The position numbers and the translations under genes were made by a program. A stretch of 64,000 nucleotides of DNA from Clostridia bacterium. GTDB taxonomy: Bacteria; Bacillota; Clostridia; JAAYHZ01. Of the stretch, positions 32,950 through 50,158 are shown piece by piece. The stretch is from NCBI GenBank assembly GCA_050950825.1, contig JBMNIH010000003.1, positions 1 to 64,000 on the forward strand, in the 5' to 3' direction. Below the pieces are notes generated by a model that saw nothing but the letters and a program-made list of their open reading frames with translations, searched no databases and had not been told where the DNA came from. The stretch's first letter is position 1. Each line of letters starts with the position of its first letter.

Positions 32950-34812
32950 CTACACAACCTTTTCTACAGGTTGATGATATGTAGGAACCAGAGCTTGTAC
33001 CTTCTTCTTTATATCCTCAGCCTTAGGTTGTTTTTCTAATTCAATACGTAACTGTTCAAGCTTTTGTTTTAATAAGGCGAAGTCACAATATAGAGGCTTT
33101 GCTATGAATATCTTATTATTCTTCGTAGATTGCAAGCCTTCTTCGGCCATAAGTAGCTCTTCATAAAGCTTTTCTCCCGGTCTTAATCCGGTGATTTCTA
33201 TCTGAATATCTTCATAAGGCCTGTAACCGGAAAGTCTTATCATGTTTTTTGCTAAATCTATGATCTTCATAGGCTGTCCCATATCCAGAACGAAGATTTC
33301 TCCTCCTTTTGCCATGGCTGCCGCTTGAAGTACTAATGAGACTGCTTCCGGAATGGTCATAAAAAATCTCGTTACCTCAGGATGAGTAACGGTAACCGGT
33401 CCACCTTCTTCAATCTGCTTTTTGAATAAAGGTATCACACTGCCATTGCTTCCTAATACGTTACCAAATCTCACAGCTACATAATCCGTATTGCTGCGTT
33501 CGTTGAGCCCTTGAACTATCATCTCTGCAATACGTTTGGTAGCTCCCATCACGTTTGTGGGATTTACTGCTTTATCCGTAGAAATGAGTACAAATCTCTT
33601 TGTTCCATACTTATCAGCGCACATGGCAACGTTTAAAGTACCGAAAACATTGTTCTTAATGGCTTCACAAGGGTGATCTTCCATTAAAGGCACATGCTTG
33701 TGAGCTGCCGCATGATAAACAATATCCGGCCTATGGGTCTTGAATATCTGTTCCATTCTACTTAAGTCACGAATATTCGCTACAACTGCATCGATCTCAA
33801 GTTCCGGATGCTTTCTTTTCAGTTCACCATGGATCCAGAAAAGATTGTTTTCATAGTTGTCTAGAATAATTAATCTTTTAGGATTAAACGAAGCAATTTG
33901 GGTACATAGCTCGGAACCTATAGACCCGCCTCCTCCGGTTACCAAGATGGTTTGATTGGCTATATAACTGCAAATTTCCGCTAAATCCGTCACAATCGGT
34001 TCTCTTCCTAACAGGTCTTCTATATTAACATCCCTGACTTTGCTCATCATGACGGACCCGTCTATAAGCTGTGTAACGGAAGGCAGTATCCTAACTTTAC
34101 AGTGTTTACATTCAATGGAAGCACAGTGTTCATATATCTTATTCAATTCACTTGGTTTCGCAGAAGGAATAGCAATGATTATTTCATCTACTTTTTTCTT
34201 TAGAATGATCTCATTGATTTTTTCTAAGTTTCCCACTACCGGGATTCCGTTAATTACTTTACCTATCTTTTCAGGGTTTTCGTCAACAAATGCAACAGGT
34301 TTACTTTGAAGTTCCTTATGGGATAACATTTCTCGCGCTATGGTAACTCCCGCTTCACCGGCACCAATGATAAGTATTCTTTTTGCATTGTTTAAAGAAA
34401 GAGATTTGTTATCACGTAATCTTCTGCCGATACGAAAAGCAATCCTTGATCCTCCAATGAAAAATACATCCAGCATGGCAGTAATAATGAATATGCTTCT
34501 TGGAGAAATAGACCGGATAAAAAAGATATATATGAATAACAAACCATTGGATACGGCAGAAGCCATGATAACGGTTAAGAATTCATATATACTGGCATAC
34601 TTCCACAGATTATGATAAAGTTTGAAAAAAGAAAATACGAGTAATTTTAGAACAACATTAACAGTCAAAAGAATGGGTATGTACTCGAAGAATAAGTCCG
34701 GTATAGACTCCAAACCAAATTCAAAACGAATCGCATAGGCAAGTGAGAACGATATCGTCAATAAAAGGATGTCTAATAATACCAATAACGCTGATTTGAC
34801 TCTTTTCTTCAT
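32950..34812 (-). CDS. capD: Membrane-anchored UDP-GlcNAc 4,6-dehydratase (CapD/PglF/EpsC family)
   Basis: N-terminal TMs; VTGGGGSIGSEL, HAAAHKHVP, STDKAVNPTNVMGATK, RFGNVLGS. Confidence 0.92.
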   Translation of the reverse strand: MKKRVKSALLVLLDILLLTISFSLAYAIRFEFGLESIPDLFFEYIPILLTVNVVLKLLVFSFFKLYHNLWKYASIYEFLTVIMASAVSNGLLFIYIFFIRSISPRSIFIITAMLDVFFIGGSRIAFRIGRRLRDNKSLSLNNAKRILIIGAGEAGVTIAREMLSHKELQSKPVAFVDENPEKIGKVINGIPVVGNLEKINEIILKKKVDEIIIAIPSAKPSELNKIYEHCASIECKHCKVRILPSVTQLIDGSVMMSKVRDVNIEDLLGREPIVTDLAEICSYIANQTILVTGGGGSIGSELCTQIASFNPKRLIILDNYENNLFWIHGELKRKHPELEIDAVVANIRDLSRMEQIFKTHRPDIVYHAAAHKHVPLMEDHPCEAIKNNVFGTLNVAMCADKYGTKRFVLISTDKAVNPTNVMGATKRIAEMIVQGLNERSNTDYVAVRFGNVLGSNGSVIPLFKKQIEEGGPVTVTHPEVTRFFMTIPEAVSLVLQAAAMAKGGEIFVLDMGQPMKIIDLAKNMIRLSGYRPYEDIQIEITGLRPGEKLYEELLMAEEGLQSTKNNKIFIAKPLYCDFALLKQKLEQLRIELEKQPKAEDIKKKVQALVPTYHQPVEKVV

Positions 34813-47338: not shown

Positions 47339-47755
47339 TTAGACATCAGGAATATCTTTTATTTCCGGAACCAGACTTGTTATAAAATTTCTAATCGCTT
47401 CTGCACATTCTATGGCTTGTTTTGCATCCTCTTCGTTTAACACTATCCCCAAAGGATATCTTGGCTCTACGCCGTAGGCTGTTAATTCCGAACATTGATC
47501 GGCTATATTATCAAAGCTTGATTCGATTTCTCTACATATTCGGTATAAGTGATCTAAATCATGGGTTTTTTCCGGTGTTATTCCATAAAAAACGAGATAT
47601 CCCTTAAGGTACTTTTCAGCCGATTGTTGACAATGGTAACACACATTTGATATTTGCATCTTACCAAGAACACTAAATAAAGTTTGAGCACATATCAAGT
47701 CTCTATAAGCAATCTGCCACCATTCTTGCGTAAGATCTTTATTATCACTAACCAT
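47339..47755 (-). CDS. HEPN-domain protein (partner of MNT)
   Basis: CYHCQQSAEKYLKG, KTHDL..L, RYP. Confidence 0.88.
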   Translation of the reverse strand: MVSDNKDLTQEWWQIAYRDLICAQTLFSVLGKMQISNVCYHCQQSAEKYLKGYLVFYGITPEKTHDLDHLYRICREIESSFDNIADQCSELTAYGVEPRYPLGIVLNEEDAKQAIECAEAIRNFITSLVPEIKDIPDV

Positions 47756-48083
47756 ATAATAACTTTCCATCCTTAATAACTTGTTGTTCGATAGTAGGGT
47801 ATGTTGTTCGCCGATAAAAATTATTTTCTTTGCTAACAATTATATCTACAGGCTTTGTTTTTTTATCTCTTATTGCTTTACGGATTTTCTTCATTACGTC
47901 TATTTCTCTAATCTCTATGTTATCAGATATAATTATATACAAATCAATATCTGAATCATCACGGTTAGTACCTTTAGCATATGAACCAAAAAGAAAAATT
48001 TTTCTTACCGGAACAGTATTTATAATCGTTTCTGTTAACAAATTCAATTGCTTCGATAAATCATCATGTGTTCTTTTAACCAT
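47748..48083 (-). CDS. Minimal nucleotidyltransferase (MNT) antitoxin
   Basis: LFGSYAKG...DSDIDL; overlaps HEPN gene. Confidence 0.9.
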   Translation of the reverse strand: MVKRTHDDLSKQLNLLTETIINTVPVRKIFLFGSYAKGTNRDDSDIDLYIIISDNIEIREIDVMKKIRKAIRDKKTKPVDIIVSKENNFYRRTTYPTIEQQVIKDGKLLYG

Positions 48084-48149
48084 ATTAACATCACATTCCT
48101 TTCGCTGTGCTCAAGGCACAAAATAGAATGAAAAATTTTTACTTAAGCC

Positions 48150-48350
48150 ACCCTCTGTAGTAAAATATAAGTGGGTATGCAGGTATACTACAGAGCACGG
48201 GGAGGTGAGTGTGACAACCAAACTTTGAGTTGTCCGTATATTAACATGTGCCGTTCGCTCTCTCAAGTACAAATAAGTGTGCCATCGAGCACGAACACTA
48301 ATCTTTGTTTTAAACAAAGCTCTTGTTTATATTGAGTGGACAGTCAATGC
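48150..48350 (+). ncRNA. Putative IS110 bridge RNA (boundaries approximate)
   Basis: Non-coding left end; internal loop holds CGGGGAGGTG (48198-48207) and ATATTAACA (48238-48246), matching the two halves of the insertion site. Confidence 0.75.
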
Positions 48351-48383
48351 CTGCATCCCTAAATATTTACAAGGGTGAGGTTG

Positions 48384-49649
48384 ATGCTTAAGATTGTCTA
48401 TCCCATCTGTTGTGGAATTGATGTCCACAAAAAGTTTGTAATTGCCACTATTGCCACCACCAATGATAAAAATGTTACTTCCTATCAAACACGTCGTTTT
48501 AATACTTTCAAAAATGATCTAATCGCTCTCAACAACTGGTTAGTAGAAAACAAGTGCAAAGATGTCTGTATGGAATCCACCGGAAAGTACTGGATTCCTG
48601 TTTTTAACGTGCTCGAGGATTTCTGCACTATTACCCTTGCAAACCCGAGATACGTTAAAAATATCCCAGGTAAGAAAACCGATAAGCGAGATTCAATTTG
48701 GCTTGCTGACTTACACAAGCATGCATTGGTAAAAGGTAGCTTTATCCCATCTAAGCCTATACGGGAGTTGCGGGATTTAATTCGGTACAAGTCTAAACTT
48801 ACCAACGTCTCTTCCAGTGAGAAAAACCGGGTGCAAAATTCGCTTACAGTTTCAAACATCATGCTTGCCAATGTTGTTTCCGACACCTTCGGCAAGTCTG
48901 CTTCCTCAATTATTAAGCACATGATAGAGAATCCTGATATCATCGACTTTGATTATTCTTCAATGCTCCACAAAAGTCTGAAGAAAAAATCGGATGAAAT
49001 TGAACAAGCCGTTGCTGGTAAATTCTCTAAGGAGCAAGCGGCAAAATTGTCTGTATGCTATGAGCACTATAACAGCGTTGAAAAATGCATCGAAATACTG
49101 GAAGCTACAATACTCGAGCTATCTTTACCTTTCAAAGAACAAATTGACATCATCGCTACTTTACCTGGTATTAAGCAGGCATCGGCTACAGCTATTCTTT
49201 CAGAAATCGGAACCGATATGTCCGTCTTCACCTCGGACAAGCATCTTTGTTCCTGGGCTGGCCTTACACCCCAGAGTAATGAAAGTGCCGGTAAGAAGAA
49301 AAGTGTCCGTATTAGCCGCGCCGGTGTCTACATTAAACCTTTACTTGTCCAGTGTGCTAATGCCGCTGTAAAGGACAAGTCCTGCACTGTTTTCAAAAAC
49401 CGCTATGAAGCGATTAAAAAACGTCGTGGTCACAAACGTGCTATTATTGCTACCGCAAGAATGATTTTAACCTGCATCTATCACATGCTCTCTAAAAATG
49501 AGCCATTCAATCCATTGCTGTATGATGACAATGCGAAATCTAAGAAGCGTAATCAGCAGGATTCTCTAAGTATTGAGCAGGCCATCGCATTTTTGCAAGC
49601 CAATGGGTATACTGTGAATATTTCTGATCTAGTGGCAATAACAAACTAA
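48384..49649 (+). CDS. IS110 DEDD recombinase/transposase
   Basis: GIDVHK, MESTGKYW, KTDKRDS, WAGLTP...ESAGK. Confidence 0.95.
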   Translation: MLKIVYPICCGIDVHKKFVIATIATTNDKNVTSYQTRRFNTFKNDLIALNNWLVENKCKDVCMESTGKYWIPVFNVLEDFCTITLANPRYVKNIPGKKTDKRDSIWLADLHKHALVKGSFIPSKPIRELRDLIRYKSKLTNVSSSEKNRVQNSLTVSNIMLANVVSDTFGKSASSIIKHMIENPDIIDFDYSSMLHKSLKKKSDEIEQAVAGKFSKEQAAKLSVCYEHYNSVEKCIEILEATILELSLPFKEQIDIIATLPGIKQASATAILSEIGTDMSVFTSDKHLCSWAGLTPQSNESAGKKKSVRISRAGVYIKPLLVQCANAAVKDKSCTVFKNRYEAIKKRRGHKRAIIATARMILTCIYHMLSKNEPFNPLLYDDNAKSKKRNQQDSLSIEQAIAFLQANGYTVNISDLVAITN

Positions 49650-50158
49650 TAGTGTAATTCCAGTTTCATCCACAGTCCTAGGTATTCCTTAAGGGCTTGC
49701 TTTGTTGCGGCCTTCGCGGGTCTTTTTTATTTTCACACTAACACCTCCTCGTTATAAGATTCTTTGACCGAAAATATGTTATTATCATTGCTACTTTTAT
49801 ATTCGCTTCTTTTTGTCCGCTCTACCCGGCCGGTGGACAAGTTGCCATTCTTGGCTACAGATTTTTAATTGATATTTCCTTAGCCCTGTTTCATAATAAT
49901 CTCGGAAAGTATTGTAAAATATACCTACCGCCTATTCTTATATTAATTATACCATAAACAAAAGTTTACAGCTCGATTCTTTACTAAAAACATCCAATAA
50001 TAAACATTCCTACAACTTATTATTTATGTTTTTATTTATTTACAGTTGCTGAAATTTTAAAACTATCAAGTGAAAATTCATTAAAGATTTAATAAAATTA
50101 TTACTTTGATAAACCGACTTATTAGTAAATAATTACATAGTACTATATAAATTCCATT

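What the first reader, a model, noticed from the sequence alone, without database searches (positions are those of the whole stretch)
48081..49752. IS110 element whose non-coding end carries guides for its own target, a ribosome-binding site
Seen: removing the element restores CATATTAA-CA-CCTCCTCG, the RBS-spacer-ATG of the MNT gene on the minus strand. The ~290-bp non-coding left end has a stem (GAGCACGG / CCGTTCGCTC) and an inner hairpin (GACAAC / GTTGTC) framing two loop strands. One is CGGGGAGGTG, a 9/10 match to the target bottom strand CGAGGAGGTG. The other is ATATTAACA, a 9/9 match to the top strand. Both stop at the same CA/TG dinucleotide. Established: IS110 bridge RNAs (IS621 type) use left and right target guides that meet at a 2-nt core. 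Inference: this is an intact RNA-guided recombinase with a CA core, programmed to hit Shine-Dalgarno sequences. A donor loop is only partly visible (ACACTAA at 48295-48301 matches the right end).
Basis: partly seen in the sequence, partly recalled or inferred. Interest (0 to 1): 0.85.

Follow-up and report, generated by a model that had tools for sequence, protein, structure and literature searches.

The report
Guide-RNA jumping gene targeting gene starts
This is an intact mobile element of the known RNA-guided IS110 family whose own guide RNA spells out a ribosome-binding site and a start codon, so it lands just upstream of gene starts; the case is instructive but is a further example of a system already described.

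Summary
The finding is real in its essentials. The element is a 1653-bp IS110-family insertion sequence with three identical copies in this genome. A public contig carries the empty site: it skips exactly 1653 bases and restores the MNT gene's SD-spacer-ATG.

Comparison with 80 related loci shows that the left non-coding end encodes a two-loop bridge RNA.
- **ATG-side guide.** The 3' strand of loop 1 (48237-47, TAT-ATT-AA-CAT) reads start codon, three variable letters, core, then the element's first letters. The three variable letters match the flank at 117 of 123 positions, against a shuffled mean of 59.
- **SD-side strand.** The 5' strand is a nearly invariant GGAGGTG.
- **Donor loop.** The 3' strand of loop 2 reads the right end, found in 58 of 59 loci.

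- The core is AA (48087-88 and 49740-41), not CA.
- The proposed outer stem is not supported. GTTCGCTC pairs instead with 48334-41.
- The guide order is that reported for IS1111, not for IS621.
- The SD strand shows no covariation, only enrichment.
- One of the three copies sits inside an ORF, at a site that matches only the ATG-side guide.

This is a known kind: bridge RNAs were described in 2024, and IS900 was reported in 1997 to target translation starts. This scan has found similar SD/ATG-targeting IS110 elements in other genomes.

The parts
48089..49741 (+). IS110-family element, 1653 bp counted with one copy of the core. Three identical copies exist in the genome.
   Evidence: copies L001-L003; a contig skips exactly 1653 bases
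48087..48088 (.). Left copy of the AA core dinucleotide. The crossover lies within TAA at 48086-88.
   Evidence: guide core equals flank core in 40 of 41 family combinations (27 TA, 13 AA)
49740..49741 (.). Right copy of the AA core.
48081..48086 (-). Flank left of the tnp-sense element: start codon of the MNT gene (CAT, 48081-83) plus the three letters upstream of it (ATT).
49742..49751 (-). Flank right of the element: CACCTCCTCG, the complement of the MNT gene's Shine-Dalgarno sequence.
48089..48105 (+). Left terminus of the element: CATCA (subfamily-specific) followed by CATTCCTTTCGC, which is conserved across the family.
48195..48251 (+). Target-binding loop, closed by GCAC (48195-98) with GTGC (48248-51).
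   Evidence: helix 1: three pairs form in 56-57 of 57 sequences, with one compensatory AU to GC; the fourth pair forms in 35 of 57
48199..48212 (+). 5' strand of the target loop. GGAGGTG (48201-07) is complementary to the flank at 49742-48. It is followed by a conserved AGTG.
   Evidence: nearly invariant in the family; enrichment; no covariation
48213..48234 (+). Inner hairpin of the target loop (GACAAC / GTTGTC).
   Evidence: a hairpin of variable sequence sits here in relatives, judged by eye
48237..48247 (+). 3' strand of the target loop: TAT-ATT-AA-CAT. It reads start codon (U pairing with G by wobble), three variable letters, core, then the first three letters of the element (handshake).
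   Evidence: 117 of 123 variable positions identical to the flank, 0 of 10000 shuffles reach this; handshake first letter matches in 41 of 41
48253..48341 (+). Donor-binding loop domain, closed by the long-range stem GTTCGCTC (48253-60) with GAGTGGAC (48334-41).
   Evidence: 7 of 8 pairs show changes on both sides; 95.6% of cells pair
48264..48307 (+). Donor loop proper. Stem CAAG (48264-67) with TTTG (48304-07); 5' strand TACAAATAAG (48268-77); hairpin 48278-93; 3' strand 48294-48303.
   Evidence: helices 3 and 4
48295..48301 (+). 3' strand of the donor loop: ACACT-AA, identical to the right terminus plus core (49735-41).
   Evidence: the guide's first six letters locate the right end uniquely in 58 of 59 loci; non-self 7-mers are present in 10 of 531 tests
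48384..49649 (+). Transposase/recombinase gene, 421 aa. It starts at the ATG that homologues use; the ORF list opens at a GTG at 48375.
49705..49729 (+). Terminator-like hairpin and T run after the transposase gene.
   Evidence: consensus scan only
49730..49739 (+). Right terminus TTTTCACACT. The family motif is TTTCA-NNNT.
47748..48083 (-). Target gene: a minimal nucleotidyltransferase (MNT), cut off from its SD by the insertion.
47339..47839 (-). HEPN-domain gene overlapping the MNT gene (an MNT-HEPN pair).

Best explanation
The element is an intact, recently mobile IS110-family insertion sequence. Its left non-coding end encodes a bridge RNA on the transposase strand.

[quoted passage not shown] It reads the start codon of a gene on the opposite strand, the three letters upstream of that codon, the AA core, and then one to three letters of the element's own left terminus (a handshake). 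Its 5' strand (GGAGGUG) can pair with the SD complement CACCTCC on the other side of the core.

**Loop 2 (donor loop).** Its 3' strand (ACACU-AA) reads the element's right terminus and core.

**Outcome.** The recombinase therefore inserts the element five letters upstream of an ATG, between SD and start codon, always antiparallel to the target gene and with no duplication beyond the core. Only three letters of the address are free to vary. SD and ATG are fixed across the whole clade.

**Shown here:** anatomy, copies, empty site, RNA helices, and covariation of the ATG-side and donor guides.
**Inferred:** that the RNA is made and bound, that the SD strand pairs with DNA, and the chemistry, which is taken by analogy with IS621.
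For: **Recombinase.**
- Pfam DEDD_Tnp_IS110 and Transposase_20. NCBIfam NF033542, 'IS110 family RNA-guided transposase', 239 bits against a cut-off of 140.
- E64, D100, D103 and S301 align with the IS621 residues in the alignment. That they are IS621's E60, D102, D105 and S241, named catalytic in the passages, is my own mapping; it assumes a two-residue offset between chain and native numbering. All four, and D13, are invariant in 20 homologues.

**Mobility.**
- Three 100%-identical copies.
- An empty-site contig.
- A fourth left flank appears as a loose end in run X16.

**RNA structure.** On 57 relatives, 95.1% of cells pair against 81.7% in shuffles. There are 172 double changes against 41.7. 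Slid controls pair at 34-46%. G-U pairs are frequent (52 and 56 of 57 at two pairs), which fits the + strand only.

**ATG-side guide.**
- CAT lies at the fixed place in 53 of 55 distinct left junctions.
- The variable triplet is identical at 117 of 123 positions, against a shuffled mean of 59.3 (sd 4.5); 0 of 10000 shuffles reach it.
- Guide core equals flank core in 40 of 41.
- The ATG frame is open for at least 60 codons in 52 of 57 flanks, against 5 of 114 for the other two frames.

**Donor guide.** The guide's first six letters locate the right end uniquely in 58 of 59 loci. The core type (TA or AA) agrees between the two loops in the alignment, judged by eye and not counted.

**SD side.**
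- GGAGGTG is nearly invariant in the 5' strand.
- In this genome, 2 of 3 insertions lie at the 5 of 218 CATATTAA sites that have CCTCC within 6 letters (p = 0.0013).
- In Terrisporobacter, 3 of 6 insertions lie at 25 of 971 such sites (p = 0.0003).
Against: - No covariation supports the SD strand. Of 25 junctions whose 5' strand deviates from GGAGGTG, the element's own strand fits the flank better in 4, ties in 11, and the canonical strand fits better in 10.
- The SD lies in a variable register. CCTCC with at most one mismatch starts 0-5 letters after the core in 48 of 58 junctions, at 7 in 1, and is absent in 9. Normal gene anatomy would give the same picture.
- Copy L003 lies inside a lipoprotein-like ORF with no SD.
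- The 5' strand does not cover the core, as both IS621 guides do.
- No strand was found that reads the element's left terminus beyond the handshake letters. The 5' strand of loop 2 is conserved, and no complement of it was seen in the left terminus by eye.
- Transcription is not shown. Contigs from RNA libraries cover the element, but the tool says this does not prove transcription. Rfam has no matching family. No circle junction was seen. No convincing junction promoter was found (and by eye).
Confidence: 0.85

Rival explanations
1. Only the ATG-side guide directs insertion. The conserved GGAGGUG has some other role, such as RNA structure or protein contact. The SD sequences in the right flanks appear only because every gene start carries one at that distance.
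For: - No covariation for this strand: own better in 4, tie in 11, canonical better in 10, of 25.
- The SD lies in a variable register, 0-5 letters after the core.
- L003 inserted at a site with a perfect ATG-side match and no SD.
- A 2026 preprint title and abstract report 'half-match' recombination (seen only in the listing).
Against: - A 7-letter sequence that is the exact SD is kept in nearly all of 68 distinct relatives.
- Insertions are enriched at the few sites that carry an SD: p = 0.0013 and 0.0003 in two genomes. Selection after insertion could contribute to this.
- In the window copy the pairing abuts the core and runs 10 letters with one G-T.
Confidence: 0.12
2. One reading: an IS621-type bridge RNA with outer stem GAGCACGG/CCGTTCGCTC, and left and right target guides that both end on a CA core.
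For: In this one copy the letters CA follow the AA on both sides. Five letters (TAACA) are therefore shared by the two junctions, and the model fits this copy.
Against: - The sister copies have AA and CC instead of CA on the right.
- In the family, both guides carry TA or AA at the homologous place.
- The stem pairs in 65.8% of cells against 66.1% in shuffles, and its 3' half belongs to a strongly covarying long-range helix.
- The order of the two strands is the reverse of IS621.
Confidence: 0.02
3. There is no guide RNA. The conserved left end is a set of protein-binding DNA sites, and the matches to the flanks are terminal repeats of the element.
For: No direct evidence of the RNA in this organism.
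Against: - Compensatory changes in 12 of 21 pairs, and G-U pairs that would be mismatches on the other strand.
- The matched letters lie outside the element, as the empty site shows, and they vary between relatives together with the internal copy.
- Experimental work on family members shows RNA guides (passages read).
Confidence: 0.01

Closest known systems
IS621 and ISEc21 bridge RNA / seekRNA systems (IS110 group; Durrant 2024 PMC11208160, Hiraizumi 2024 PMC11208158, Siddiquee 2024 PMC11187229)
   Same: - DEDD plus Ser recombinase.
- A guide RNA encoded upstream of the gene in the left end.
- Two internal loops, one for the target and one for the element's own ends.
- Guides that pair with opposite strands on either side of a dinucleotide core.
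- A handshake extension 3' of the 3' strand.
- No target duplication.
   Different: - Sequence relation to IS621 is remote: E = 7e-10, two short stretches.
- The protein is 421 aa, against 315-385 aa for those branches (passage).
- The strand order is reversed. Here the 5' strand is complementary to the top strand of the far flank, and the 3' strand is identical to the top strand of the near flank.
- The 5' strand does not cover the core.
- The target is a gene start, not a REP or IS3 sequence.
IS1111-group seekRNAs (ISEc11, ISKpn4, ISPa11; Siddiquee 2024)
   Same: The order of the two target matches: the top-strand complement lies 5' of the bottom-strand complement (passages).
   Different: - In IS1111 the RNA lies downstream of the transposase gene; here it lies upstream.
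- IS1111 elements have subterminal inverted repeats of 7-17 bp. None is found here: the longest inverted match between the two 40-nt ends is 6 letters, reached by 721 of 2000 shuffles.
- IS1111 transposases are 330-350 aa.
IS900 of Mycobacterium avium subsp. paratuberculosis and its relatives (IS110 family)
   Same: IS900 is reported to target translation initiation signals. I saw only the title of Doran et al. 1997 in the reference list of PMC8141618, together with an introductory passage. My recollection, from no call here, is that it inserts between RBS and start codon in one orientation, and that the transposase is of similar size.
   Different: - IS900 carries a long antisense ORF (hed) said to span the element and to use the host signals. 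Here no antisense ORF starts at the right end.
- No paper in the searched library links IS900 to a bridge RNA (0 papers).
- I did not compare the sequences.
CazIS110-1 of Caloranaerobacter azorensis (preprint 10.1101/2025.10.25.684509)
   Same: - An IS110 element of a Clostridia host with about 10 copies.
[quoted passage not shown]
- Integration said to go mainly by top-strand insertion (abstract and section 5).
   Different: Its sequence and target are not given in the text I read, so I cannot say whether it belongs to this clade.

Membership tests
IS110-family RNA-guided (bridge RNA) insertion sequences | Recombinase with a RuvC-like DEDD domain and a Tnp domain carrying a catalytic Ser | tested here: met
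   - Pfam PF01548 (E = 1e-20) and PF02371 (E = 7.5e-18).
- NF033542, 239 bits against a cut-off of 140.
- E64, D100, D103 and S301 align with the IS621 residues that I take to be its catalytic ones, by my own mapping of chain to native numbering.
- They are invariant in alignment A1.
IS110-family RNA-guided (bridge RNA) insertion sequences | A structured non-coding RNA with two internal loops in the long non-coding end | tested here: met
   21 pairs in 4 helices. 95.1% of cells pair against 81.7% in shuffles. 12 pairs have double changes.
IS110-family RNA-guided (bridge RNA) insertion sequences | Target-loop strands complementary to the two flanks on opposite strands | tested here: inconclusive
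   - The 3' strand is met by covariation: 117 of 123 positions.
- The 5' strand is conserved and complementary to the SD, and SD sites are enriched, but it shows no covariation.
IS110-family RNA-guided (bridge RNA) insertion sequences | Donor-loop strands complementary to both element ends | tested here: inconclusive
   - The 3' strand reads the right end in 58 of 59 loci.
- No strand was found for the left end apart from the handshake letters of loop 1.
IS110-family RNA-guided (bridge RNA) insertion sequences | Simple insertion at a shared core with no target duplication | tested here: met
   The empty-site contig skips 1653 bases. The three copies share only TAA at both junctions.
IS110-family RNA-guided (bridge RNA) insertion sequences | A circular intermediate, and an RNA that is expressed and bound by the recombinase | not testable with these tools
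   No back-joint appears in four runs of contigs. Contigs cannot show transcripts.
IS621/ISEc21-type bridge RNA | [quoted passage not shown] | tested here: not met
   Here the strand identical to the near flank plus core is the 3' strand (48237-47). The 5' strand pairs with the far flank and is followed by AG, not the core. The rule is taken from passages.
IS1111 group | Non-coding RNA region downstream of the transposase gene, and subterminal inverted repeats of 7-17 bp | tested here: not met
   The RNA region is upstream. The longest inverted match between the two ends is 6 letters, which is chance level.
IS1111 group | The top-strand complement lies 5' of the bottom-strand complement in the guide RNA | tested here: met
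   GGAGGTG (48201-07), complementary to the top strand, precedes ATATTAACAT (48238-47), identical to the top strand. The rule is taken from passages.

The most novel reading that the evidence does not exclude
This large Bacillota clade may have a bridge-RNA architecture not yet characterised.
- The RNA gene lies upstream, as in IS110, but the guide order is that of IS1111. Relative to IS621's mechanistic left and right, the whole RNA-plus-recombinase cassette is therefore inverted.
- The address is a fixed two-part 'gene start' (SD plus ATG) with only three free letters.
- Natural junctions carry a one-sided record of the tolerant core position. The ATG-side junction always has the donor letter, and the SD-side junction often has a foreign one. 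This is what insertion through a single strand's lineage would leave in vivo.
Probability: 0.4. Interest if true: 0.6.

Novelty: new member of a known kind. Interest (0 to 1): 0.4.

Why it matters
- **Why it lands where it does.** The guide explains, letter by letter, why a widespread family of insertion sequences in anaerobic Bacillota sits exactly between ribosome-binding site and start codon. It thereby links the 1990s observation on IS900 to the RNA-guide mechanism described in 2024. I found no paper in the searched library that makes this link. The supplements of the 2024 papers, which I could not open, may already list this clade.
- **For engineering.** The clade offers natural examples of a guide with a fixed part and a three-letter programmable part, of tolerance to a half-site (copy L003), and of a strand order different from IS621.
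- **For annotation.** Such insertions silence the gene they precede. Here that gene is the MNT partner of an MNT-HEPN pair.

Tried and rejected
- **Rfam.** Only a chance snoRNA match at E = 0.08. No bridge-RNA family was matched.
- **Single-sequence folds.** The 293-nt fold had z = -3.5, but its pairs did not match the family structure. The 201-nt fold had z = -0.5. Single folds were not used.
- **Promoter scan.** It gave consensus matches only: an internal TTTACT-17-TAAAAT at 48138-66, and a minus-strand TTGAGA-17-TAATAT at 48266-38. The internal site is not at a conserved place in the Terrisporobacter element, judged by eye. I found no convincing promoter across the predicted circle junction.
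- **'The left 11 letters belong to the element' (my first idea).** All three copies share CCATATTAACA. The idea was rejected by the empty-site contig and by the variation of the triplet among relatives.
- **First regular expressions for guides and right ends.** They failed or were too strict (0 and 11 loci) and were replaced.
- **7-mer search for the right end.** It found only 30 of 59 loci. The 29 misses have a different second core letter, which became an observation in its own right.
- **Covariation test of the SD strand.** Negative.
- **Depth in RNA-library contigs.** X15 reads 17.9 on the element against 2.3 on the flank, and X16 reads 32-44 against 7.2. The DNA runs read 12-25 against 4-10. 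The tool says contigs cannot show expression, and the element has at least three copies, so I draw no conclusion. No circle junction was seen in the four runs.
- **Other ATATTAACAT sites in the window.** The sites at 34022, 47070 and 55689 are unrelated.
- **PMC4607514.** Nothing on IS900 targets.
- **Supplementary files.** They are closed. Those of PMC11208160 and PMC11187229 may already list this clade's targets or guide order.
Full report
**What is there.**
- Between 48089 and 49741 lies a 1653-bp element whose only long ORF is 48384-49649 (421 aa from the ATG that homologues use).
- The ORF matches Pfam DEDD_Tnp_IS110 and Transposase_20. It matches NCBIfam NF033542, 'IS110 family RNA-guided transposase', at 239 bits against a cut-off of 140.
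- It is only remotely related to the solved IS621 recombinase (E = 7e-10). Even so, E64, D100, D103 and S301 align with the IS621 residues that I take to be its catalytic ones. This rests on my own mapping of chain to native numbering. All four, and D13, are invariant in 20 homologues.
- To the left, on the minus strand, lie an MNT nucleotidyltransferase gene (47748-48083) and an overlapping HEPN gene.

**Checking the observation.**
- The genome holds three 100%-identical copies.
- All three have CCATATTAACA to the left of TCACATTCC. To the right of CACACTAA they read CACCTCCTCG, AACCTCCCGG and CCACTTCAAG.
- I first suspected that the shared left letters belong to the element. Two results rule that out:
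  - A 616-nt contig of run X15 joins 48085 to 49739. It skips exactly 1653 bases with no mismatch, and five letters (TAACA) fit either side. That is the empty site, CCATATTAACACCTCCTCG. The caveat is that only 30 letters lie right of the joint.
  - Among relatives the letters between CAT and the core vary from element to element.
- Run X16 also shows a fourth, different left flank abutting 48081.

**Family comparison.** The protein has thousands of relatives. From an alignment of 20 of them I fetched 80 loci in named genomes, mostly Clostridia and Bacilli at 56-65% identity. Their left ends align well.

*Left junctions.*
- In 53 of 55 distinct left junctions the flank reads CAT at a fixed distance from the conserved terminus CATTCCTTTCGC.
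- CAT is followed by three variable letters, then TA or AA, then four or five subfamily-specific letters.

*ATG-side guide (41 distinct guide/terminus combinations).*
- The 3' strand of the first internal loop repeats this string.
- The variable triplet is identical at 117 of 123 positions. The shuffled mean is 59.3 (sd 4.5), and 0 of 10000 shuffles reach the observed value.
- The core is identical in 40 of 41.
- The next letter equals the element's first letter in 41 of 41. Two letters agree in 27 of 41, and three in 8 of 41.

*The CAT is a real start codon.* Its frame stays open for at least 60 codons in 52 of 57 distinct flanks, against 5 of 114 for the other two frames.

*Multi-copy check.* Six copies in one Terrisporobacter genome show the same pattern. 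Five of the six abut an ORF start.

*Donor loop.*
- The 3' strand of the second loop carries five letters plus the same core type. These are ACACT-AA here and, for example, AGACT-TA elsewhere.
- Its first six letters locate a unique TTTCA-NNNT-type right end in 58 of 59 loci with enough flank.
- A full 7-mer is found in 30 of 59 loci. Non-self 7-mers are found in 10 of 531 tests.

**RNA structure.**
- RNAalifold on 57 distinct relatives, followed by a pair count on a structure I fixed, support four helices:
  - GCAC/GTGC, closing the target loop (48195-98 with 48248-51).
  - A long-range helix, 48253-60 with 48334-41. Seven of its eight pairs change on both sides.
  - CAAG/TTTG, closing the donor loop (48264-67 with 48304-07).
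  - A hairpin, 48278-82 with 48289-93.
- Overall, 95.1% of cells pair against 81.7% in shuffles. There are 172 double changes against 41.7. Slid controls pair at 34-46%.
- Two pairs are G-U in 52 and 56 of 57 sequences. The RNA is therefore read from the transposase strand.
Its 3' half is the 5' half of the long-range helix.

**The core.**
- In this copy the junctions share TAACA, which is why a CA core looked right.
- The sister copies share only TAA.
- In the family both loops carry TA or AA at the homologous place, and by eye the two loops agree with each other. Guide and flank agree there in 40 of 41 combinations.
- I therefore place the core at AA (48087-88 and 49740-41). The CAT that follows it in the guide is a handshake with the element's own first letters.
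- In the passages I read, IS621's handshake guide lies 3' of the 3' strand and pairs with donor letters after strand exchange. That matches the arrangement here.

**Strand order.**
[quoted passage not shown] That is the flank joined to the RNA-encoding end. The 3' strand (RTG) pairs with the top strand on the right. ISEc21 has the same order.
- Here the order is the other way round. The 5' strand GGAGGTG is complementary to the top strand of the far flank. The 3' strand is identical to the top strand of the near flank.
- Siddiquee et al. report this order for IS1111-type seekRNAs, whose RNA lies downstream of the gene.
- The element has no subterminal inverted repeat, and its protein is 421 aa. 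That size is in the range those authors give for the IS110-proper subgroup.
- If the RNA-protein architecture is conserved, the mechanistic top strand is the target gene's sense strand. This is inference.

**Does the SD strand guide?**

*For.*
- GGAGGTG is nearly invariant.
- In the window copy it pairs with 49742-51 right next to the core: 7 Watson-Crick pairs, one G-T, then 2 more.
- In this genome, 218 sites read CATATTAA and only 5 of them have, or had, CCTCC within 6 letters. Two of the three insertions used such a site (hypergeometric p = 0.0013).
- In Terrisporobacter the figures are 971 sites, 25 with CCYCC, and 3 of 6 insertions (p = 0.0003).

*Against.*
- Of 25 junctions whose 5' strand deviates from GGAGGTG, the element's own strand fits better in 4, ties in 11, and the canonical strand fits better in 10.
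- The SD starts 0-5 letters after the core in 48 of 58 junctions, at 7 in 1, and is absent in 9.
- Copy L003 interrupts a lipoprotein-like ORF at a site with a perfect ATG-side match and no SD.

I conclude that the ATG-side guide is the main determinant, and that the SD strand probably helps.

**What is known.**
- Bridge RNAs and seekRNAs of IS110 and IS1111 elements were described in 2024 (passages).
- That an IS110-family element targets translation initiation signals was reported for IS900 in 1997. I saw only the title, in the reference list of PMC8141618, and an introductory passage on its hed ORF. Further details of IS900's target are recalled, not seen.
- Three searches found no paper that joins the two ideas. 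'IS110' + 'bridge RNA' + 'Shine-Dalgarno' gave 1 paper, which is not on this point. 'bridge RNA' + 'IS900' gave 0 papers. 'IS110' + 'ribosome binding site' + 'start codon' + 'RNA-guided' from 2024 gave 4 papers, 2 listed, neither on this point by title and abstract.
- A 2026 preprint says that many bridge-RNA models deviate from IS621.
- Earlier reports of this scan describe SD/ATG-targeting IS110 clades in other genomes, and one cites IS900. I reached the same reading from my own loci.

**Verdict.**
- The core, the outer stem and the 'IS621 type' label need correcting.
- This is a new member of a known kind. The guide order, the fixed SD-plus-ATG address and the one-sided core record are the features that might deserve a specialist's look.

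Noticed in passing
family loci L004-L083; window 48087-88 and 49740-41: The two junctions treat the second core letter differently. At the right (SD-side) junction of TA-type elements it is A in 11, T in 11, C in 9 and G in 3 of 34. In AA-type elements it is A in 18, T in 4, C in 1 and G in 1 of 24; those 24 include 6 + 2 sister copies. The left junction carries the guide's core in 40 of 41. This one-sided pattern is what a single strand's lineage would leave. It recalls both the 'first core position tolerant' rule of IS621 and the top-strand insertion proposed for CazIS110-1.
   Followed up: partly
L003 (G000:C7:21902-23563, element on the minus strand): The third copy sits inside an ORF that begins with a lipoprotein-type signal peptide (137 aa up to the element), not at a gene start. 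The site matches the ATG-side guide perfectly and lacks an SD, so it is a natural half-site insertion. Pfam finds no family in the truncated product.
   Followed up: partly
L002 (G000:C10:49747-51414): The second copy separates the SD (CCGGGAGG) from the ATG of a 365-aa DUF6807 gene.
   Followed up: yes
window 47339-48083 (-): The interrupted gene is the MNT partner of an overlapping MNT-HEPN pair, the gene arrangement of a type VII toxin-antitoxin module (that label is from my own knowledge). The insertion detaches both genes from their SD and from whatever promoter lies beyond 49752.
   Followed up: no
window 48094-48105 (read on the minus strand) and the same place in the family: The conserved left terminus reads GCGAAAGGAATG on the target gene's strand. 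This places an AAGGA-like box 12-13 letters upstream of the displaced ATG. It could act as a weak substitute ribosome-binding site; this was not tested.
   Followed up: no
window 48238-48266 (-): A minus-strand promoter-like site, TTGAGA-17-TAATAT with TG before the -10 box, overlaps the target-loop guide and points toward the MNT gene. It is a consensus match only. In a TA-type relative the spacing I counted by eye is 14.
   Followed up: no
G000:C3:411209, C3:424929, C4:416405: Three unoccupied sites in the genome read CATATTAA followed by CCTCC after 1 or 4 letters. The two occupied SD sites have 2 letters there. This hints that register matters, but n is tiny.
   Followed up: no
run X16, records 9 and 8: Two contigs are of note. 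One matches only 48180-48211 with one difference and then diverges, so a related element is probably present in the same community. Another gives a fourth left flank abutting 48081. The runs that hold the element are labelled anaerobic digester, biogas fermenter, sludge and bioreactor metagenomes.
   Followed up: no
window 48268-48277 and the family: The 5' strand of the donor loop (TACAAATAAG) is almost invariant across the family, although the element's first 4-5 letters differ between subfamilies. I saw no complement of it in the left terminus by eye. What recognises the left end is therefore unexplained.
   Followed up: partly
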